DNA from: a virus
Taxonomy: Duplodnaviria > Heunggongvirae > Uroviricota > Caudoviricetes
Virus record (IMG/VR): IMGVR_UViG_3300025131_000004
Reading direction: 5' to 3' (one strand)
Length of the DNA: 10,491 bases
Shown: piece by piece, positions 1 through 10,491 of the stretch
Layout of the letters: each line of letters begins with the position of its first letter
How positions within the stretch are numbered: the first letter of the stretch is position 1
Notes under the pieces: generated by a model
The model's database searches: none
Told to the model about the DNA's origin: nothing
Seen by the model: the letters and a program-made list of their open reading frames with translations, nothing else
Translations under genes and position numbers: made by a program

Positions 1-95
1 TCAGTGATCTGCCGAAACTTTCCATTCTTTTTCTTTACTGAATAGATTCGATAGTAACTATGTCTATTCGCTAAGATGTCACTGAGTCCAGACAT
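1..95 (-). CDS. 5' end (partial, runs off window) of a probable retron-like reverse transcriptase
   Basis: ATG at 95 with AGGTGA upstream, overlapping the HNH 3' end by 25 nt. Translation: MSGLSDILANRHSYYRIYSVKKKNGKFRQIT(E). Y-x-x-(F/Y)-x-(I/V)-x-K-K-x-G-x-x-R-x-I is the typical first conserved block of retron/retron-like RTs. Only 31 codons are visible and no YxDD is in the window. Confidence 0.6.
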   Translation of the reverse strand, partial: MSGLSDILANRHSYYRIYSVKKKNGKFRQIT

Positions 96-718
96 TCTTC
101 TTCACCTGGTAGGAAGTTTCTCCATGAAGAATGAACCTTGCTGACTCCTGCTGTCATTGGTTTCCATTCTGGAATGTAAGGCTTCGATAGAAGTTTCATT
201 CCTGCTTCTTTTGGAGTTCTGTTCCCCTTCCTTTGATTGCACTTGATACATGCTGTCACACAATTATCAAAGTTGGTTCCAGGGAAACGCATGGTTGGAT
301 GGTTTCTTGGTATCACATGATCTATGTTGATACGCGGCCTGCCATTGCTATCTCTTCTGTTTCTCTTGAAATCATTACCACAGTACTGGCATCTATAGTT
401 GTCTCTTTCAAAGACACCACCTCTGCTGTATTTCAGTTCATGCCTAGGTAGTCTGTCGTACTTGGTAAGAATGACCACTCTAGGAACTAGGATGGGTGTT
501 CCTGGACCATGCCTAACAAAGTCCTCGAACAATTCCATCTGCTTTTCATTGACTGGCAGAGTTCTCCACGCAGAGAAATCATGAACCATTCCAGTTCTAT
601 GATCTAGAGCGTTTACCGTTCCAGAGCATAGTCTTGTGAATGCTCTTCCTACTTCAATGATATGAATAGGAAACCATTGTTTGTTTAGTACTAAAGTATC
701 ACCACGGATGCCCATCAT
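71..718 (-). CDS. HNH endonuclease (McrA/COG1403-like, Zn-binding)
   Basis: N-terminal LVLNxxWxP block, then ERDNYRCQYCG, IDHVIPR and NCVTACIKCNQRKG. AAGGAG RBS at 723-728. Start is 718 or 715. Confidence 0.93.
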   Translation of the reverse strand: MMGIRGDTLVLNKQWFPIHIIEVGRAFTRLCSGTVNALDHRTGMVHDFSAWRTLPVNEKQMELFEDFVRHGPGTPILVPRVVILTKYDRLPRHELKYSRGGVFERDNYRCQYCGNDFKRNRRDSNGRPRINIDHVIPRNHPTMRFPGTNFDNCVTACIKCNQRKGNRTPKEAGMKLLSKPYIPEWKPMTAGVSKVHSSWRNFLPGEEECLDSVTS

Positions 719-735
719 CCATCTCCTTTAGGTTG

Positions 736-960
736 TGGTAGTTTCAGGAATCGAACCCAAATGCAGACAATCCCCTCTGTGTTAACAAAAGTGGAAAGGT
801 GAATTGTGTGCTTACACCAGCTCTACCTTGAAATTCAATCCATAAGCTCCATGGCTTAGGTTCTCTTTGGCAATGCCCTTACTTAGCCTCTAACCATCAC
901 TCGTTTAAGAGGCACCGTAGGAATCAGATCGTCGTCTGCTCTGCTTATGAATCAAACTAC
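736..960 (-). ncRNA. Putative tRNA-like/tmRNA-like structured RNA with a ~160-nt insert in place of the anticodon loop
   Basis: Terminal helix GTAGTTT(960-954)/AAACTAC(744-738). T-arm-like TGGG-TTCGATT-CCTG (759-745). 8-bp helix GCAGACGA(939-932)/TTGTCTGC(770-763) sits in the anticodon-stem position. No canonical D-arm. Confidence 0.5.
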
Positions 961-963
961 AAG

Positions 964-991
964 CAAGGGGCCAGCTGTGCTGAGCCCCTTG
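964..991 (-). other. Near-perfect hairpin capped by a C-ACA-G triloop
   Basis: CAAGGGGC-TCAGC-ACA-GCTGG-CCCCTTG. The U-G pair is compatible on the minus strand. There is no good U-tract, so it is not clearly a terminator. Confidence 0.7.
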
Positions 992-1066
992 TATATGCTT
1001 ACCGTTCCTTAGAGGTCCCTATTGGTTTGTCTCTGTCCCTCATATTGGGTAAGCAATGCAGTCTAA

Positions 1067-2137
1067 TCAGACTGCCAGTTCTACCTCGGCTACTTGATCC
1101 TCAGTCGTCTCTACCACTTCGATCGTAGGAGTCTCTTCGACGACTGTCGCCTTCTTCTTCTTACGCTTTCGTGGATATGCAACCTTATAAAGGTCTAGCT
1201 CCTTCAGGGTGGTATCAAAGTTTACGATCTTCTCATGAGCAGCTTGGATAGCTGTTCTGGTCAAACGAACAGGAGTTATCCTGTTGGTGTTAGCCTTGAA
1301 GTAGACCATATGATAACCCAACGGTTCATGTCTCAATATTACTTGCAGTGCATTGTATAATACTTGTGCTGCAGTCATATTGACCGAAATACTTTGGGGG
1401 TTGGCCAAAGCTCTCATTGCACAGTTCTCAGGGTTTTCTGCTTCGGTGGGCAACAAGCCCATCTCTCCGAAAGCACTTGGGAACTGTTCAAAGAAACAAG
1501 GGAGCCTGAATGCCTTTGGAATAGGCACTTCTTCAGAATCTAAGTCTGGGTCTTCCAAAGCAGAGATGGTGTCCCTGCTTTGTCCTTTATACGCGATGAC
1601 CATTTGACCTGTGAACTGTTCGTTTCCTGAGTCCAACCAGAAAGTCTCTAGGTGCTCAGGTCTCTTCATGTACCACTTGAAGAACAGTGCTCTTGTCTTG
1701 TTGTTGTCTACGCATGTAATCAAGATAGGACTTGCGTTGGTAGATTGGGTATAGATCAGAGCATTGATGTCTTCGTTGCTCTCTAGATAGCCATTGTAGT
1801 AGGCGATATCAATGCCAAAGGCATTTGAATATCTCTTTGCCATGACTTCAGCTTTGTACTTGTTGACATCAGCTCTTACAAACTGTTGTCTTACAAGATT
1901 CTTATCTTCTACCTTGTCACCATCAACCAAGACCAGCCTTAGGCTGTCAGGTTTCTTGTTGCCCATGCCACCACGTCTCAACTTGTTGATGAGTGAGATG
2001 TATCGTGCCAGGTGTGGAATCAGATAGCCGCCAGTTCCTCCACATCCCACTACGATGACGACCTTGTCGATAGATCTATCGGAAGGCCCTCGATTATAAT
2101 AGCCGTGGAAGTTATGTACTGTATTAATTTCTCGCAT
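1067..2137 (-). CDS. ThiF/E1-like ubiquitin-activating enzyme (PRTRC-type ThiF)
   Basis: VGCGGTGG nucleotide-binding loop, VDGDKVEDKNLVRQQF, CVDN, WLDSGN, and candidate catalytic Cys in ENCAMRALANPQ. I prefer the start at 2137 (TAAGGA RBS just after the JAB stop) over 2206. Confidence 0.9.
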   Translation of the reverse strand: MREINTVHNFHGYYNRGPSDRSIDKVVIVVGCGGTGGYLIPHLARYISLINKLRRGGMGNKKPDSLRLVLVDGDKVEDKNLVRQQFVRADVNKYKAEVMAKRYSNAFGIDIAYYNGYLESNEDINALIYTQSTNASPILITCVDNNKTRALFFKWYMKRPEHLETFWLDSGNEQFTGQMVIAYKGQSRDTISALEDPDLDSEEVPIPKAFRLPCFFEQFPSAFGEMGLLPTEAENPENCAMRALANPQSISVNMTAAQVLYNALQVILRHEPLGYHMVYFKANTNRITPVRLTRTAIQAAHEKIVNFDTTLKELDLYKVAYPRKRKKKKATVVEETPTIEVVETTEDQVAEVELAV

Positions 2138-2144
2138 TGTATCC

Positions 2145-3464
2145 TTACTCGCCAAACGTTTCGCTTGTCTCGTGAAAATCTCGAAGAGCCTCGTTGATAG
2201 TTTCATTGTGACCTATGGCCGCCAATCTACCTACGATATGATAGATGTCATCTTGATCAGCTATGTTACAGATTGCATCGATGTAGTCGTAGATCGCTGC
2301 TTCGTCAGCAAGGAGCCAGCTGAACTCTTCGAATTGATCTGGAGGATCAATACCTACCAAGTATTCAGAGACCCAATCTGGATCTTCTCCGAAGGTATAA
2401 AGAAGCTCTCTATCATCCTTGCCAAGACCAAACTTCTCCCACCAGTCGACAGTCTGTTCACCAAAAGCATCTCTTATCTTCTGGATCCTGTCTTCTTCCT
2501 TCGGAAGGTAGTACGTCCTGCTCGGACCCCACTCCCCAAAGAGGCTCGGATCGAACGAGGACTTGGTCTTGAATTCAACTGGAATTCCATTGACGATTGA
2601 GTCTGGTCTGCCTTGAAAGCGGCTCCTTGGCCTGACAACCTGCTTTCTTGCAGCTACGTGTGCAATATTCGCCCGCCATACAGCTTCGGGAATTTCTACC
2701 ACAGGAATATTTTCCAATCCATCCACTGTGTCGGATTCGATATCAAAGATCTCGTCAAGACTAAGTGGAACCTCTTGACCTGTAACACAGGAGACTGCAC
2801 GCAAAGCCCATTCAGGCAGAGCTTTCTGGATCTTGCCAACTACTCCATAAAGTCTGAAGGCTTTCTCGTCAGCAGTGTCGGTTCCTGAAAAGTAACCAGA
2901 CATTGTGTTGTGAGAATGAATCTCCATAGCTGTGATGAGGTTCGGATCCGCTTCTTTGGTAAGATCACGCTCATAACGGACTCCACCCTTGCTGACCACA
3001 TGCTTGGGAACGTCAATGAAGTACTCCTGCTTCTCGATGTCAAAGTAGATGACTGCGTATGCCTCAGCCTCATTCATCTCTTTACAAATTTTTCTGAAAA
3101 AGGTGACGATCTGAGCAAAGTGATTGATTGGGATACGTGGAAGAGTGAGCTCAAAATTAGGCTCGACGTCTTCAGGGTGTCCAGGAATCTTGAACTCAGC
3201 TTCTCTTGTTGTAATTGTTCCAATTGGATTGCTTTCAATTACATAGAGACCATCACCACGGACAATCTTTGTTCGTGGCTTGTCATACGTACCACTCTCA
3301 GACACGTCGGTCACATAACCATAGTATCTATTTTGGAGCTGTTCTCTTACGGTGCTCTTGTTCTTTTGAGTTTCCATGACTGCCTCTTTCTTGGCAGCGG
3401 ATTGCCTATCAATCATATTTTTTAGAGCAGCGATGCTGCCATTCGTACTAGTAAGTTTGTCCAC
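2145..3464 (-). CDS. Prokaryotic JAB/JAMM peptidase (PRTRC protein A-like) with long acidic C-terminal extension
   Basis: EAEAYA...MEIHSHNTMSGYFSGTDTADE matches the JAMM motif E-x(n)-HSH-x7-S-x2-D. GTG start with GGGAG RBS. Confidence 0.88.
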   Translation of the reverse strand: MDKLTSTNGSIAALKNMIDRQSAAKKEAVMETQKNKSTVREQLQNRYYGYVTDVSESGTYDKPRTKIVRGDGLYVIESNPIGTITTREAEFKIPGHPEDVEPNFELTLPRIPINHFAQIVTFFRKICKEMNEAEAYAVIYFDIEKQEYFIDVPKHVVSKGGVRYERDLTKEADPNLITAMEIHSHNTMSGYFSGTDTADEKAFRLYGVVGKIQKALPEWALRAVSCVTGQEVPLSLDEIFDIESDTVDGLENIPVVEIPEAVWRANIAHVAARKQVVRPRSRFQGRPDSIVNGIPVEFKTKSSFDPSLFGEWGPSRTYYLPKEEDRIQKIRDAFGEQTVDWWEKFGLGKDDRELLYTFGEDPDWVSEYLVGIDPPDQFEEFSWLLADEAAIYDYIDAICNIADQDDIYHIVGRLAAIGHNETINEALRDFHETSETFGE

Positions 3465-4128
3465 TGAATGTCTCCCTGATTAGATCCTTGATGGTCTTGT
3501 TTAGCTGCTTCCCCTCAAGAGGAAAGGTTCCATTCCTGACACATGTTGAGATGAATCCATCAGTGCCACCTAGGTGGCCGTTGAATGGTGTTGAATAGAA
3601 TGCATTCACAACCCCTCTGCAAGAGGCGATGTCTGTAGCTTCAATACGATTGCTTCCCCAACAGATGGCACCACCGCTATACGTGTTGCCATAGCCTGTG
3701 AAGTTATACAGTGTATCGGTATCAAACTTGACGCCATGTTGAAGAGCAAAGACCTTGGAGTCTCTGTATCTATTTGGCTGCCGACCACCTCGTCCTGCTG
3801 CCTTGGGTGCACCTAGCTGGAAGGCAAAGATCAAGTGAGGAAATGGCACCTGCTTGATGATCTCTCCGGTATAGCCCCAACGAATGTCCACCTTACGAGG
3901 ACCACTCTGATAAAGAACTGCCTCTGTGTCACCTTGGCGGCCGACAAAGACAACGCCAGTATCAGAACAAGGCATCATGCCTGTATCAAATGCAGTTTCA
4001 GAAAAGAGATACTTCAAGTCATCAGGATTGATGGTCTTGGTAGACTGAGAGTTTCCTCGTACCTCTGTAATTGTGGTTCCCTGCTCATCGATTTCGATGA
4101 TCAGTTTGTCTGGATCAGTTCTTGGCAC
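3448..4128 (-). CDS. Prokaryotic E2 family D (PRTRC protein B-like) conjugating enzyme
   Basis: PFPHLIF, then LYNFTGYGNTYSGGAICWGSN with the candidate active-site Cys in ICWG, then FYSTPFN. It is adjacent to JAB and E1. Confidence 0.8.
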   Translation of the reverse strand: MPRTDPDKLIIEIDEQGTTITEVRGNSQSTKTINPDDLKYLFSETAFDTGMMPCSDTGVVFVGRQGDTEAVLYQSGPRKVDIRWGYTGEIIKQVPFPHLIFAFQLGAPKAAGRGGRQPNRYRDSKVFALQHGVKFDTDTLYNFTGYGNTYSGGAICWGSNRIEATDIASCRGVVNAFYSTPFNGHLGGTDGFISTCVRNGTFPLEGKQLNKTIKDLIRETFSGQTY

Positions 4129-7574: not shown

Positions 7575-8240
7575 TTATGCACCTACGATTTGATCGACCA
7601 TTCCCTTCTTACCGTACTCCAAACAATCCTCTGGACTCATCCAATAGTCATGCTTCAAGTCTGATCGAACCTTGGACTTACGTTGTCCACAAGTCTTTGC
7701 GATTCGATTTACTGCCTGTTCATGAAGCATCTCTGTCCACCTCATGTCATCTTTCAACTCTTGGTATGTACCCCAAGCTATAGATGATAATTGATGAATC
7801 ATCATATAAGAGCTGGGTGTGATAACCCTGCCCCCTGGAGCACCACTCATAGCAATGAGAGCACCCATGCTTGCAGCATAGCCTTCTACATATGTGATGA
7901 CTGGTGAACTGATGGCGTTCATGCAATCAATGATTGCATTCCCATCGATGATGCTACCTCCAGGAGAATTGATGTACATGATAATAGGGGGATTCATATC
8001 CCACCTATTATATTCAGCATCATATTCTCTTAGGGCTCTAATGATCTTGGAAGATACCGTCGTTCCAATTGGCTTGTCCAGATAGATTTCTCTTCGCTCA
8101 TCAACAATGATGATCTCGTTTTGATCTCCACCCAAGCTACTCTTTGTTCCCTTCTTCTCAGAAGGAGTTGAGGAATTAGTAGGCGGTCGTCTGTTCAGTA
8201 ACCTGTTCAAATCGAACGGGTGAGTTGCGGAGTGACTCAA
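7575..8240 (-). CDS. clpP: ClpP-family serine protease subunit
   Basis: YINSPGGS, AASMG (catalytic Ser), MIHQ (His), HDYWMS (Asp region). TTG start with GGGAG RBS; the exact start is uncertain. Confidence 0.92.
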   Translation of the reverse strand: MSHSATHPFDLNRLLNRRPPTNSSTPSEKKGTKSSLGGDQNEIIIVDERREIYLDKPIGTTVSSKIIRALREYDAEYNRWDMNPPIIMYINSPGGSIIDGNAIIDCMNAISSPVITYVEGYAASMGALIAMSGAPGGRVITPSSYMMIHQLSSIAWGTYQELKDDMRWTEMLHEQAVNRIAKTCGQRKSKVRSDLKHDYWMSPEDCLEYGKKGMVDQIVGA

Positions 8241-8475
8241 GTGTATCTCCCTGCTTTACGGATCTGCGATTGACTCCGGAAAGAACTAGATGCTTGTGAC
8301 CATTACTGGCACGTGTGATGATGTCTACGATGAGACCTCGACAAACGATAGTGTCTTCACGATAGACCAATACGCCGTCGTTGATCTGGAAGTCTGCAAA
8401 GTCCGCTGGGGCTGTGAGTGTGAACTCATTGCTGGTGGGATCTACAAAGAACCCATCTACTGTAATTCTATTCAT
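8176..8475 (-). CDS. Hypothetical protein (99 aa, beta-rich)
   Basis: TAATG-coupled to the upstream ORF. Overlaps the clpP start by 65 nt. Confidence 0.65.
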   Translation of the reverse strand: MNRITVDGFFVDPTSNEFTLTAPADFADFQINDGVLVYREDTIVCRGLIVDIITRASNGHKHLVLSGVNRRSVKQGDTLESLRNSPVRFEQVTEQTTAY

Positions 8476-8747
8476 TAGAATATTTCTCCTTCTTCGTCTT
8501 CAGTTACAGAGATGACAATGATGTCTCCCCTCAATCTGAAGTGATGTGCCTTGACCTCACGGTCAGGATCTGGGTTAAGGTGTCTTACATAGGCCCGAAG
8601 CAAGTCGGTGACCTTGGCCACCTCTTCTTCTGTTACCTCGAATACATCCTTAAATTCTTCTTGAGCAAACTGTAGAAGTTCTCGTTCCCACTTTGGATTA
8701 CGATCACCTTCCCAGTACTCTCTAGGTGAGTATAATTTTCTCGCCAT
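8475..8747 (-). CDS. Hypothetical acidic protein (90 aa)
   Basis: Start reassigned to ATG 8747 with an AAGAGGT RBS 6 nt upstream. The longer 8792 start would run into the structured RNA. Confidence 0.7.
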   Translation of the reverse strand: MARKLYSPREYWEGDRNPKWERELLQFAQEEFKDVFEVTEEEVAKVTDLLRAYVRHLNPDPDREVKAHHFRLRGDIIVISVTEDEEGEIF

Positions 8748-8780: not shown

Positions 8781-9032
8781 AGGATAGGACACTGCCTACC
8801 CTATAACAGTCGAGATGTGTTCACGCTGAGGAGCTCAGCAGTCACTGCAGTGATGTCCCAGTTCGAGTCGACGAATCTGTTCGGCGACCTCGAGGACATG
8901 TCCTGGTCATCTCATGAAGAGCTATAGTCGTGGCCTTCTCGGTTCCGCGAACTGCTGTGCAGTGATTACGCGAGACCGAGAGGCCGTAGACTATAGCTCT
9001 TCCTGTTAAGCTCCTGTTTTCACAGTACACTT
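8781..9032 (-). ncRNA. Structured RNA unit 3 of putative array
   Basis: GUA/GA motif hairpin with GAAA loop (9032-9008). 87-nt stem capped by C-ACA-G (9002-8916) whose base is a 14-bp perfect helix. Nested 3' domain closed by GAGATG/CATCTC. Terminal C-AGT-G hairpin (8802-8781). Confidence 0.7.
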
Positions 9033-9512
9033 TATGGTGAGCTAAGCTTGGGCACTGCCCAACCATAGCTCACTTTATTTAGATATTTTATCTAAATAAT
9101 AACTAAAGTGGACTGTTGTTTAAATTAAGAGTGAGCTGACTCAGCTGTGCTGACAAAACGCGAACGGGATTTAAACATATGTCTACTTTAGTGACACTAG
9201 TCTCCTTCTTTTGGAAGTACGACTATTGGGACCCAGGCCTGGACACCGCCAAGTCTAGGGCCATCTTCGAGCGCGCCGGAGCGCTCTTCGTCCGGCATGC
9301 GCAGCTGGCCAAAACTCCAGATCTATATCTGGCGCCGTCGGGCTGCTCGTTTCCCGGATCCGCCACCTGGTGGCGGACTTCACGTCCGGGAAGATCTTCG
9401 AAGAGCGAGACCCGACTTTGTCCTGAATGAGAGGCAGGTGACTGTGTCACCGACCGCTGAACATTCTGGATCTTAGTCGGGTCTCTACCTCTACCTCCTG
9501 TTTACACAGTAC
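9011..9512. repeat. 17/18-nt direct repeat CTCCTGTTT(A/T)CACAGTAC at 9011-9028 and 9495-9512
   Basis: Read directly. The single difference falls in the loop and switches one GNRA tetraloop for another (GTAA vs GAAA on the minus strand). Confidence 0.9.
9037..9225 (-). ncRNA. Structured RNA unit 2 of putative array
   Basis: GUA/GA motif hairpin (9225-9198). 91-nt stem capped by C-ACA-G (9192-9102). AT-rich hairpin (9099-9075). C-AGT-G hairpin (9073-9037). Confidence 0.65.
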
Positions 9513-9518
9513 GGTAGA
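9226..9518 (-). ncRNA. Structured RNA unit 1 of putative array
   Basis: GUA/GA motif hairpin with GTAA loop (9518-9490). 79-nt stem with an 11-bp base, capped by C-ACA-G (9485-9407). Several GC-rich 3' helices follow. Confidence 0.65.
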
Positions 9519-9519
9519 T

Positions 9520-9562
9520 AAAAGAAAGGCCCCGCCCCCTGTGTGCACCGGGGACGAGGCCT
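9520..9562 (-). terminator. Intrinsic-terminator-like hairpin after TROVE gene
   Basis: AGGCCTCGTCCCC / GGGGCGGGGCCT long GC-rich stem with G-U pairs on the minus strand, followed by TTCTTTT. Confidence 0.65.
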
Positions 9563-9592
9563 GACACCATGGCTATTAAGCCTAGGTTTTCT

Positions 9593-10491
9593 TTAGAAGT
9601 TCTTTCGAATGTATTCGATAGTAGGGGTCACCTTCTTATCTCCTACGCTCTCCAGTCCTTCAAACTGTGCGAAAGTATTGAAGATCTTCTCAGACCATCC
9701 AGATACCAGATTCACATTCTTGTCTTCGGACGGAACCTGAGATCCACTTCCGTAAGGCATGAGGTCGACTGAATGAATCTTGACCTCTCTATTATATTTT
9801 CTACGATAGCTGTCTATTGCACTGTATAGGGCTGGCGCATCTGCTCCATATCCCATACTTCCATAGCACTGCATGTCGGAAAGGATGACAATCCTATCGA
9901 CCCTTAGCTTAGAAGCACTAAGCAACTCGACTGCCTTATGAGCATAGGTTGCATGACCACACTTCCTTGCTGCAGTCTGAATCTTACCCATCGTAGCAAT
10001 GACAGAGTCATTCTTGTTCAGGACTGCCATCGCTGCTGACTGTCCGAATGGAATGACTACTCCATTCTCAGATGCCTTGAAACAGATAGCTCCCATCAAC
10101 TGAGAGACCTGCGCTGCATTGAGTGAAGACCTCTGAGAGACCGTCGCTCCATACATGGACCCAGAGACATCGACCAGCACTGCAGTGTTACCTGACAGTT
10201 CTACGATGTTCTCTACGGACATATCCAAAGCACGTTCAACGGCTGCTTGTAGATTCTGTACTGAGAAATGATTGACAGCCGTTGCTCGAGGAGCAGCGTA
10301 ATCATATCCACTATAGAAATTACTTGCTGCTGAGAACTTCTTTGTCTCTGCCCCTGCCTCTTCCAATGCGATTCCTGCTGTGAAGAATCTAAATGGAAGC
10401 TGACGAGACCTTGCGACCTGCTCAGGGTCGGTAAGCTTTGCAACTACAGTAGCTATCGTAGTTTGAGAGACATTGGCCTGAACCAAGTTCC
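9593..10491 (-). CDS. TROVE-domain + vWA protein (Ro60/Rsr/TEP1-like), 5' part outside window
   Basis: RQLPFRF block, vWA MIDAS motif VLVDVSGSM, RIVILSDMQ, and SVDLMPYG. The frame is open to the window edge. Confidence 0.88.
   Translation of the reverse strand, partial: NLVQANVSQTTIATVVAKLTDPEQVARSRQLPFRFFTAGIALEEAGAETKKFSAASNFYSGYDYAAPRATAVNHFSVQNLQAAVERALDMSVENIVELSGNTAVLVDVSGSMYGATVSQRSSLNAAQVSQLMGAICFKASENGVVIPFGQSAAMAVLNKNDSVIATMGKIQTAARKCGHATYAHKAVELLSASKLRVDRIVILSDMQCYGSMGYGADAPALYSAIDSYRRKYNREVKIHSVDLMPYGSGSQVPSEDKNVNLVSGWSEKIFNTFAQFEGLESVGDKKVTPTIEYIRKNF

What the first reader, a model, noticed from the sequence alone, without database searches (positions are those of the whole stretch)
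8781..9518. Array of three sequence-divergent, structure-conserved RNA units immediately downstream of a TROVE (Ro60-like) gene
Each unit on the minus strand has the same architecture. First comes a hairpin with a GUA/GA internal loop (9518-9490, 9225-9198, 9032-9008). A 4-5-nt linker follows. Next is a 79-91-nt irregular stem (9485-9407, 9192-9102, 9002-8916) capped by a C-ACA-G triloop (GGTGAC-ACA-GTCACC, TCAGC-ACA-GCTGA, ACTGC-ACA-GCAGT). Variable 3' helices end each unit, and units 2 and 3 both finish with a C-AGT-G triloop hairpin. The stem sequences are unrelated, so structure rather than sequence is conserved. It is established that bacterial/phage Ro60 genes are flanked by Y RNAs, but I find no tRNA-like YrlA T/D module here. 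By inference this is a new class of Ro/TROVE-bound RNAs, or an array of hairpin templates for the RT at the far end of the locus.
Basis: partly seen in the sequence, partly recalled or inferred. Interest (0 to 1): 0.92.

Follow-up and report, generated by a model that had tools for sequence, protein, structure and literature searches.

The report
Structured RNA-like array beside phage Ro60
Just after the Ro60-like (TROVE) gene of an uncultured marine phage lie three tandem, strongly folding non-coding units that match no known RNA family and may be unusual partner RNAs of that protein, but neither transcription nor binding has been shown.

Summary
Window 9518-8781 (minus strand) is a 738-nt non-coding spacer between a 575-aa phage Ro60/TROVE gene and a small-ORF/ClpP/CCA-enzyme cluster. 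It folds far better than shuffles (z = -12.6). It holds three units built alike. Each has a 27-29-nt hairpin with a GUA/GA internal loop (H1), a 4-5-nt linker, a 79-91-nt irregular hairpin tipped C-ACA-G (L), and a variable 3' part (D).

- H1 occurs three times in the 120-kb genome, only here.
- L3 and L1 are the two most stable ~100-nt hairpins found in the genome.
- Stem sequences differ between units while pairing is kept.
- Rfam and ARAGORN find nothing here. The Rfam YrlA model does detect Y RNAs next to TROVE in two control phages.
- No similar unit flanks about 160 other TROVE genes.

My best reading (about 0.4) is a lineage-specific array of structured RNAs tied to the Ro60 protein, with H1 as a protein-binding handle. 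This is inference. The long hairpins fold equally well on both strands, so a DNA-level role is not excluded. All strain variants are nearly identical, so there is no orthologue covariation.

It is retron-type, lies 8.7 kb away and has its own upstream RNA-like spacer, so the template idea is unlikely.

The parts
9593..10491 (-). 3' part of the 575-aa Ro60/TROVE gene; the gene runs on beyond the window to 11320 in window numbering.
   Evidence: Pfam gives TROVE plus vWA_Ro60/DUF7788, and PHROG 850 'RNA-binding protein' at 3e-27. The full length was read from the genome. PDB relatives are 9L5Y/9KOP at 1e-19 and 2NVO at 5e-6.
9519..9565 (-). Terminator-like element: a GC-rich 12-bp hairpin (9565-9527) followed by a U-run. 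It ends one base before unit 1.
   Evidence: Fold; part of it was found by the consensus scan. It has two U-G pairs, so it forms well only on the minus strand.
9490..9518 (-). Unit 1, H1 hairpin: 6-bp outer stem, GUA/GA internal loop, 4-bp inner stem, GUAA loop.
   Evidence: Folds at -13.6 kcal/mol on minus vs -9.9 on plus.
9407..9485 (-). Unit 1, long irregular hairpin L1 (79 nt, 31 bp) tipped C-ACA-G.
   Evidence: z = -7.6. Second most stable of the long-hairpin candidates screened in the genome.
9229..9404 (-). Unit 1, 3' part D1. It holds a 141-nt three-way junction closed by a 7-bp helix that carries CGAA on both strands (9404-9264), then a 34-nt hairpin (9262-9229). G+C is 64%, against 48% for the genome.
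   Evidence: z = -4.65 for the junction. Internal 21-nt repeat starting UCGAAGAU. No codon periodicity.
9198..9225 (-). Unit 2, H1 hairpin: 5-bp outer stem, GUA/GA loop, 4-bp inner stem, CAAAA loop.
9102..9192 (-). Unit 2, long irregular hairpin L2 (91 nt, AT-rich, 7x7 internal loop) tipped C-ACA-G.
   Evidence: z = -4.7 on minus and -5.9 on plus.
9037..9099 (-). Unit 2, 3' part D2: an AT-rich hairpin (9099-9075) and a hairpin with a C-AGU-G triloop (9073-9037).
   Evidence: z = -7.0.
9008..9032 (-). Unit 3, H1 hairpin: 4-bp outer stem ending in a U-G pair, GUA/GA loop, 4-bp inner stem, GAAA loop.
   Evidence: Folds at -7.3 kcal/mol on minus vs -1.9 on plus.
8916..9002 (-). Unit 3, long irregular hairpin L3 (87 nt, 35 bp) tipped C-ACA-G.
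   Evidence: z = -10.3. Most stable of the long-hairpin candidates screened in the genome. Shares a 20-nt stretch (75%) with L2 next to the tip.
8781..8913 (-). Unit 3, 3' part D3: a 104-nt domain closed by a 6-bp helix (8913-8810; weak, z = -1.9) and an end hairpin with a CAGUGU loop (8802-8781).
   Evidence: The end hairpin is 80% like that of unit 2.
8475..8747 (-). First gene after the array: a 90-aa ORF with AAGAGG 8 nt before the ATG. It is followed by a 99-aa ORF, ClpP and a CCA-adding enzyme.
   Evidence: Gene calls on sister contigs; Pfam.

Best explanation
The spacer is an array of three paralogous structured non-coding RNAs. They are read from the minus strand as part of this phage's long RNA island: about 30 tRNAs, then Ro60/TROVE, then the array, then ClpP, a CCA-adding enzyme and a tmRNA. 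Each unit carries the same 'handle', H1. H1 is a short hairpin whose GUA/GA loop has the sequence signature of the bulged-G (sarcin-ricin / loop E) motif, a common protein-docking module. Joined to H1 are a roughly 40-bp rod (L) and a variable 3' body (D). The most likely partner is the Ro60/TROVE protein encoded immediately upstream. On that reading the units play the part of Y RNAs, which bind or gate Ro60 or tether it to another factor, without being YrlA-type tRNA mimics.

Shown: the anatomy, its uniqueness in the genome, pairing kept through sequence change, and the lack of any known family.

Inferred: transcription, processing into units, and binding to TROVE.
For: 1. The fold is extreme: z = -12.6 for the spacer, and each L has z between -4.7 and -10.3.
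2. H1 is found only here in 120 kb, three times in 485 nt on one strand, against about 2.3 relaxed-motif hits per whole shuffled genome.
3. Compensation among copies, read: in H1, 6 of 9 pair positions change on both sides while staying paired. In the top 5 bp of L, 4 of 5 positions do so below an invariant C-G / ACA tip.
4. Minus-strand RNA features: GNRA loops GUAA and GAAA, a GUAC...GGA core identical to the bulged-G core of the 23S sarcin-ricin loop (my knowledge of that motif), and a U-G pair beside the loop in unit 3. All three H1 hairpins fold better on minus than on plus.
5. There is no coding signal and no Pfam hit for the ORFs inside.
6. Context: same strand as, and directly behind, a true Ro60 homologue. 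Bacterial and phage Ro60 genes are known to have partner RNAs within a few kb, often several (PMC4201824; PMC12135203).
7. This phage has no YrlA within 20 kb, although the model finds YrlA in control phages. The protein therefore has no other visible partner RNA.
8. The only strain difference is a 1-nt insertion in a predicted unpaired junction.
Against: - There are no expression data.
- A canonical-looking intrinsic terminator sits between TROVE and unit 1, with no room for a promoter after it. Transcription would need read-through or an unknown phage promoter.
- The long stems fold as well or better on the plus strand. Their mismatches include as many A-C (G-U on plus) as G-U, so they show no RNA-strand-specific selection.
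- No related array lies next to about 160 other TROVE genes.
- The nearest TROVE relatives carry other elements downstream: a different conserved hairpin in L015/L016 and T-arm-like modules in L017/L096.
- The H1-L part lacks the defining Y-RNA shape, which is a 5'/3' closing stem with a bulged Ro-binding helix.
Confidence: 0.4

Rival explanations
1. The units are structured RNAs with a partner other than TROVE. Candidates are a protein-binding or decoy RNA for a host or phage factor that recognises the bulged-G hairpin or long duplexes (RNase III, a dsRNA-binding defence protein, a ribosome-directed toxin), or stable RNAs like the function-unknown small RNAs in the T4 tRNA cluster.
For: The structural evidence is the same as for the best explanation. 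Near-perfect 30-37-bp duplexes are classic RNase III substrates (my knowledge). The array has no Y-RNA shape and no homologue beside other TROVE genes.
Against: Direct adjacency and shared strand with TROVE, which otherwise lacks a partner RNA. No candidate partner protein was identified. The H1 loops are not the GAGA loop of the sarcin-ricin loop, so a strict mimic is excluded.
Confidence: 0.22
2. It is a DNA-level element. The three long imperfect inverted repeats act as hairpins or cruciforms in single-stranded or supercoiled DNA, for instance as a priming, replication or recombination signal, a hairpin promoter for a phage polymerase, or decaying palindromic insertions.
For: The long stems and the whole region fold equally well on both strands, and L2 and L3 fold better on plus. 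Most internal loops are symmetric (1x1, 2x2, 3x3, 7x7), as expected from point mutations in a former perfect palindrome. G-U and A-C mismatches are balanced. A terminator lies just upstream. Unit 1's 3' part has foreign-looking G+C of 64%.
Against: H1 favours the minus strand, with GNRA loops and a U-G pair. The 3' parts are multi-branched rather than simple palindromes. The array sits inside a one-directional gene block, not at a strand switch. The non-palindromic tip C-ACA-G and the H1 loop are kept while the stems drift, which points to a read-out of one strand.
Confidence: 0.17
3. It is a processed leader or spacer. The array has no trans function. It serves as a set of processing, stability or regulatory hairpins between the TROVE message and the downstream ORF90-ORF99-ClpP-CCA operon, like the RNase III sites between T7 early genes.
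For: No terminator follows the array, and the last hairpin abuts the next gene's ribosome-binding site.
Against: 738 nt with three elaborate, paralogous three-part units is far more than processing sites need. The conserved H1 handle suggests specific recognition.
Confidence: 0.12
4. One reading: the long hairpins are templates (msd-like) for the retron-type reverse transcriptase at the far end of the locus.
For: A retron-type RT really is encoded at window -774..95 (Pfam RVT_1 6.5e-21; PADLOC RT_III-A 1.6e-70; NCBIfam retron St85 family 1.7e-61, below its cutoff) behind a PtuB-like HNH. Retron msd regions are long irregular hairpins (my knowledge). A hairpin with the same CAGC-ACA-GCUG tip as L2 sits in the spacer upstream of HNH-RT.
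Against: The RT is 8.7 kb and about 12 genes away. Retron RNAs lie next to their RT, and this RT has its own 348-nt structured spacer. The units have no flanking a1/a2-type inverted repeats beyond random expectation. An 11-nt match in 10 kb is expected by chance about twice.
Confidence: 0.04

Closest known systems
Bacterial and phage YrlA-type Y RNAs with Ro60/Rsr (Rfam RF02553; Chen et al. 2014, PMC4201824)
   Same: Non-coding, highly structured, one to several copies, same strand and within a few hundred nt of a Ro60/TROVE gene, set in a tRNA and RNA-repair neighbourhood that includes a CCA-adding enzyme.
   Different: There is no tRNA-like T/D module. The H1-L part has no 5'/3' closing stem with a Ro-binding bulged helix. 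There is no RF02553 hit at E <= 1 within 20 kb, while control phages score 1e-6 and 2e-3. The units are 190-290 nt rather than 80-130.
Thermus phage phiLo Ro60 with Yrl1/Yrl2 (PMC12135203; PDB 9L5Y, 9KOP)
   Same: It is the closest solved relative of this TROVE protein (E 1e-19). Its partner RNAs are phage-encoded hairpin RNAs next to the gene, more than one copy, and not tRNA mimics.
   Different: Yrl1/2 lie upstream of the gene and are short stem-bulge-stem hairpins defined by a CGAA motif. Here the array is downstream. CGAA is not enriched (5 seen, about 3 expected). Only the three-way junction in unit 1 has a CGAA-bearing closing helix.
Bulged-G (sarcin-ricin / loop E) motif hairpins, e.g. 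23S rRNA 2653-2667
   Same: H1 has the core 5'-GUAC...GGA-3': G bulge, U-A and A-G non-canonical pairs flanked by a C-G pair, near a GNRA-type loop.
   Different: The loop is 4 bp further away and is GUAA, GAAA or CAAAA rather than GAGA. The flexible A-C/U-C region is replaced by Watson-Crick pairs. The resemblance is by sequence signature only, and the 3D fold was not tested.
'Handle' RNA arrays beside phage Ro60-like DUF2828 genes
   Same: The general plan matches: a phage Ro60-type gene next to 3-10 tandem small structured RNAs that share one conserved handle and differ in their bodies.
   Different: That handle is a clamp helix plus ACAGCAA/CAGCWA, and the protein is DUF2828. Here the protein is true TROVE, the handle is a GUA/GA hairpin, and ACAGCAA is absent from the array.
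Retron msr-msd RNAs
   Same: They have long irregular hairpins of 80-90 nt preceded by a short hairpin, and a retron-type RT is present in the same phage.
   Different: The units are not adjacent to the RT and have no a1/a2 repeats. There are three tandem copies rather than one.

Membership tests
YrlA Y RNA (RF02553) | Match to the covariance model | tested here: not met
   No hit at E <= 1 in the window or in 20 kb around TROVE, nor at E <= 10 in the spacer. As a positive control, the model hits upstream of TROVE in Streptomyces phage Quantum (43 bits) and Gordonia phage Rabbitrun.
YrlA Y RNA (RF02553) | tRNA-like domain (T arm, D arm, acceptor-like stem) | tested here: not met
   ARAGORN finds none in the window. 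There is no Rfam tRNA hit in the spacer. No T-loop hairpin was seen on reading the folds.
YrlA Y RNA (RF02553) | Encoded within about 4 kb of a Ro60 orthologue | tested here: met
   The array starts 75 nt after the TROVE stop codon, on the same strand.
Canonical Y RNA (Ro60 partner) | 80-130 nt; 5' and 3' ends form a long stem with a bulged Ro-binding helix (CGA/CGAA) below a large internal loop | tested here: inconclusive
   The H1-L parts do not have this shape. The 141-nt junction domain of unit 1 (9404-9264) is closed by a 7-bp helix carrying CGAA next to a 5-nt bulge, which is compatible but not specific.
Canonical Y RNA (Ro60 partner) | Physical binding to Ro60 | not testable with these tools
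   Needs EMSA or co-purification.
Retron msr-msd RNA | Lies directly beside its RT and is flanked by inverted repeats a1/a2 | tested here: not met
   The RT is 8.7 kb away. Best flank duplexes are -13.6, -4.2 and -13.8 kcal/mol, against a random mean of -11.7 with sd 4.2.
Bulged-G (sarcin-ricin/loop E) motif | 5'-GUA-3' opposite 5'-GA-3' between Watson-Crick pairs | tested here: met
   Present in all three H1 copies, with invariant GUACU...AGGAG.
Bulged-G (sarcin-ricin/loop E) motif | S-turn three-dimensional fold | not testable with these tools
   No RNA 3D prediction or probing is available.
Handle RNAs of DUF2828 Ro60-like phage proteins (scan notes) | Clamp helix next to ACAGCAA / CAGCWA | tested here: not met
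   There is no ACAGCAA in the array. The motif is not arrayed in the 160 TROVE loci either.

The most novel reading that the evidence does not exclude
A new class of Ro60/TROVE partner RNA. Each is a modular RNA built from a bulged-G hairpin handle, a 40-bp rod with a fixed C-ACA-G tip and an exchangeable 3' body, encoded as a three-copy array. This would show that phage Ro60 proteins have recruited partners unrelated in fold to Y RNAs or tRNA mimics. A bolder variant, at a few per cent, is that the H1 hairpins imitate the ribosomal sarcin-ricin module to divert a host factor or toxin that targets it.
Probability: 0.3. Interest if true: 0.75.

Novelty: new variant of a known kind. Interest (0 to 1): 0.55.

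Why it matters
Ro60 proteins are widespread in bacteria and large phages, but their RNA partners are known for few of them and are mostly tRNA mimics. A Ro60 gene followed by three elaborate units of a quite different build, in a phage that otherwise shows no Y RNA, gives a concrete and cheap binding test of purified protein against three RNAs. If it binds, the range of RNAs that Ro60 rings use would widen. It would also give the bulged-G hairpin a role as a portable handle. If it does not bind, the array is still one of the most strongly folding non-coding stretches in this phage and would be a candidate for an unrelated phage RNA or DNA signal.

Tried and rejected
- **Rfam.** I searched the window, 20 kb around TROVE, and the spacer alone at E <= 10. 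Only noise came back: generic miRNA-precursor hairpins far below threshold.
- **ARAGORN on the window.** Nothing.
- **blastn of the spacer against 50,697 phage records.** No match.
- **Exact-motif scan of IMG/VR with the 18-nt H1 core.** One chance hit inside a coding region of an unrelated AT-rich contig.
- **Close relatives for covariation.** Six contigs of the same phage are 99.9-100% identical in the spacer. The next TROVE relatives are at most 43% identical. The CCA enzyme has no relative in IMG/VR by the pattern scan.
- **H1 descriptor scans over 1.02 Mb of 160 TROVE loci.** Two stringencies were used. Hits are few, lie partly inside ORFs, and none is followed by a long hairpin.
- **Long-hairpin scan of the same loci.** Assorted hairpins, none like the units.
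- **'ACAGCAA handle' from earlier scan notes.** Absent here.
- **C-AGU-G and C-ACA-G as genome-wide signals.** No general enrichment outside the array.
- **Coding reading of the inner ORFs (74, 75 and 83 aa).** No Pfam hit and no codon periodicity.
- **Retron a1/a2 test.** Negative.
- **MAFFT alignment of H1.** It put the gap in the stem rather than the loop, so the pair-count tool could not be used and I counted pairs by hand. For the same reason I built no covariance model.
- **ESM Atlas look-ups of the two small ORFs after the array.** They gave only weak leads.
Full report
**Setting**

The window is bases 27128-37618 of a 120-kb IMG/VR virus record, estimated 56% complete. The same phage occurs on a 195-kb contig and in several marine metagenomes.

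All genes here lie on the minus strand. Read 5' to 3' on that strand, the order is:
- about 30 tRNA genes, including a CUA-anticodon tRNA
- a DNA ligase and an AAA protein
- a 575-aa Ro60/TROVE gene (window 9593 to beyond the window end)
- the 800-nt spacer in question
- ORFs of 90 and 99 aa, a ClpP-type protease, and a CCA-adding enzyme with an HD domain
- four ORFs of unknown function (140, 64, 127 and 295 aa)
- a PRTRC-like E2/JAB/E1 cassette
- a 348-nt structured spacer, a PtuB-like HNH and a retron-type RT
- SpoVG and a tmRNA

The TROVE protein is a true Ro60 homologue. Its best solved relative is the Ro60 of Thermus phage phiLo (E 1e-19), followed by D. radiodurans Rsr.

**The observation**

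After the TROVE stop codon comes a small hairpin. Next is a GC-rich 12-bp hairpin with a U-run (9565-9519) that looks like an intrinsic terminator. One base later the three units begin.

Each unit starts with H1, which has an outer stem of 4-6 bp, GUA opposite GA, a 4-bp inner stem and a 4-5-nt loop (GUAA, CAAAA, GAAA). A linker of 4-5 nt follows. Then comes a single irregular hairpin of 79, 91 or 87 nt whose tip is always C-ACA-G.

The 3' parts differ:
- Unit 1 has a 141-nt three-way junction plus a hairpin.
- Unit 2 has two hairpins.
- Unit 3 has a weakly folding 104-nt domain plus a hairpin.

The end hairpins of units 2 and 3 are 80% alike and carry CAGUG in the loop. In unit 3 the predicted loop is a hexaloop, so 'triloop' holds only if C and G pair across it.

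**Is it more than chance?**

Yes.
- The spacer folds at -367.7 kcal/mol, against -258.9 +/- 8.6 for dinucleotide shuffles (z = -12.6).
- Taken apart, L1, L2 and L3 have z of -7.6, -4.7 and -10.3. The H1 hairpins have z of -3.1 to -3.7 despite being about 30 nt. Coding controls of similar size give -0.05 to -2.6.
- The strict H1 pattern occurs exactly three times in the 120-kb genome, all here.
- A relaxed pattern is expected about 2.3 times per genome on both strands. Apart from these three it is seen only once, in the antisense of a tRNA.
- An inverted-repeat seed screen of the genome found 12 long-hairpin candidates. L3 and L1 are the two most stable of them, and L2 is also among them.
- C-ACA-G triloops on stems of at least 5 bp number 10 on this strand in 120 kb, and three of them are here.

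**Structure kept while sequence changes**

The three units have almost no sequence in common outside GUACU...AAA...AGGAG in H1, the ACA tip, a 20-nt stretch shared by L2 and L3, and the end hairpins.

Counting by hand:
- In H1, 6 of 9 pair positions change on both sides among the three copies and stay paired. The one exception is an A-A at the outermost position of unit 3.
- In the top five pairs of L, 4 of 5 positions do the same below the invariant C-G.

This is paralogue covariation from only three copies. It is real but statistically thin, and I could not feed it to the pair-count tool because MAFFT misplaced the single gap.

**RNA or DNA, and which strand?**

This is the weak point. The whole region folds at -326.2 kcal/mol on minus and -321.6 on plus, and L2 and L3 fold better on plus. 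G-U pairs are few on both strands, at 13 of 261 against 17 of 263. The mismatches in the long stems are mostly symmetric (1x1, 2x2, 3x3, 7x7). They include as many A-C as G-U, which is what a drifting DNA palindrome would also show.

Several features favour minus-strand RNA:
- All three H1 hairpins fold better on minus: -13.6, -8.7 and -7.3 against -9.9, -7.3 and -1.9 kcal/mol.
- Two GNRA loops are present.
- GUAC...GGA is the core of the bulged-G motif of the sarcin-ricin loop (my knowledge of that motif).
- A U-G pair lies beside the loop in unit 3.
- The 3' parts are multi-branched rather than simple palindromes.
- The array lies in a co-directional RNA-gene island.

I put RNA against DNA at roughly 4:1.

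**Known families**

Rfam finds nothing in the window at E <= 1, nothing in 20 kb around TROVE except the tmRNA and tRNAs, and only sub-threshold miRNA-hairpin noise in the spacer at E <= 10. ARAGORN finds no tRNA in the window.

As a positive control, the Rfam YrlA model picks up Y-RNA-like elements just upstream of the TROVE genes of Streptomyces phage Quantum (43 bits) and Gordonia phage Rabbitrun. This phage's Ro60 gene therefore lacks the usual tRNA-mimic partner within reach of the model.

**Relatives**

The six other contigs of this phage that were retrieved are 99.9-100% identical in the spacer. The one difference is an extra A in a predicted unpaired junction.

The next TROVE proteins are at most 43% identical. 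In 160 such loci (1.02 Mb) I found no H1 followed by a long hairpin, and the few H1-like hits fall in ORFs or have nothing after them.

The closest relatives carry other things behind TROVE. L015 and L016 share a different conserved irregular hairpin. L017 and L096 have T-arm-like elements. The association 'structured RNA-like element behind TROVE' is therefore general, but this particular design is so far unique to one lineage.

**The reverse transcriptase**

An ORF of 289 aa starting at window base 95 and running off the window is a retron-type RT (Pfam RVT_1 6.5e-21; PADLOC RT_III-A 1.6e-70; NCBIfam retron St85 family 1.7e-61, below its cutoff). It sits behind a PtuB-like HNH.

It is 8.7 kb from the array. 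It has its own 348-nt spacer, which contains a T-arm-like element and a hairpin tipped CAGC-ACA-GCUG. The three units lack flanking inverted repeats beyond random expectation. I rate the template idea at about 4%.

**What it most likely is**

I commit to an array of three paralogous structured RNAs functionally tied to the Ro60 protein (0.4). H1 would be the shared protein-docking handle, and L plus the 3' part would be the body. The unit 1 junction domain, closed by a CGAA-bearing helix next to a bulge, is the piece most like the stem-bulge-stem Ro-binding site described for phiLo Yrl RNAs (PMC12135203), but CGAA is not enriched.

Rivals are:
- RNA with another partner (0.22)
- a DNA-level hairpin signal or decaying palindromes (0.17)
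- a processed leader (0.12)
- RT templates (0.04)

**Novelty and score**

Ro60 genes with neighbouring partner RNAs are known (PMC4201824, PMC12135203), and earlier notes of this scan report other phage Ro60-like genes with arrays of handle-bearing RNAs. Those handles are different.

The design here matches no catalogued family, so I class it as a new variant of a known kind. It rests on one phage lineage, without expression data or orthologue covariation.

Noticed in passing
window 1-718 and beyond (genome 26353-27845): A retron-type RT of 289 aa (PADLOC RT_III-A 1.6e-70; NCBIfam retron St85 family 1.7e-61, below cutoff) lies directly behind a PtuB-like HNH (215 aa) in a phage genome. It looks like a phage-borne retron-like module.
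   Followed up: partly
window 719-1066 (minus): A 348-nt non-coding spacer upstream of HNH-RT (z = -2.8). It has a GGGUUCGAUUCC T-arm-like element near a 7-bp terminal helix ending ...ACUACCA, and a GC-rich hairpin tipped CAGC-ACA-GCUG, the same 11 nt as the tip of L2. It is not called by ARAGORN or Rfam and is probably the RT's own RNA.
   Followed up: partly
window 1067-4128: A ThiF/E1 (379 aa), a JAB-like protein (439 aa) and a Prok-E2 (226 aa) match PRTRC-system models (TIGR03736/03735/03737, below cutoffs). A ubiquitin-like conjugation cassette is unusual in a phage.
   Followed up: no
L003 14847-14920 (genome 38846-38919, about 400 nt upstream of TROVE): ARAGORN calls a tRNA-Met(CAU) with an odd D region. 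Rfam's tRNA model does not report it at E <= 1, so it may be a tRNA-like element rather than a working tRNA.
   Followed up: no
window 8176-8475 (99-aa ORF, second gene after the array): The ESM Atlas model (pLDDT 0.64) resembles the beta-barrel domain 2 of EF-Tu/IF2/EF-G (TM 0.62-0.75). This is only a lead, but it is notable next to hairpins that carry a sarcin-ricin-type motif.
   Followed up: no
window 9229-9404: The 3' part of unit 1 has 64% G+C against 48% for the genome and shows no codon periodicity. It may be acquired DNA.
   Followed up: partly
L015 4800-4890 and L016 4770-4850: The two closest viral TROVE relatives (41% identity) share a conserved irregular hairpin about 150 nt after TROVE, with 3' strand GCUGGGGAUKUGUGCGU. 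It is a candidate partner RNA of that subclade and is unrelated to the units here.
   Followed up: partly
L017 4507-5046; L096 2534-3344: T-arm-like GGUUCGAUUCC elements that were not called as tRNAs lie downstream of TROVE in two 38%-identical relatives. They may be YrlA-like tRNA mimics below Rfam threshold.
   Followed up: no
genome 43654-43727 and 25373-25778: The phage carries a CUA-anticodon (amber-reading) tRNA and its own tmRNA (Rfam 89.7 bits) with a 30-residue tag.
   Followed up: no
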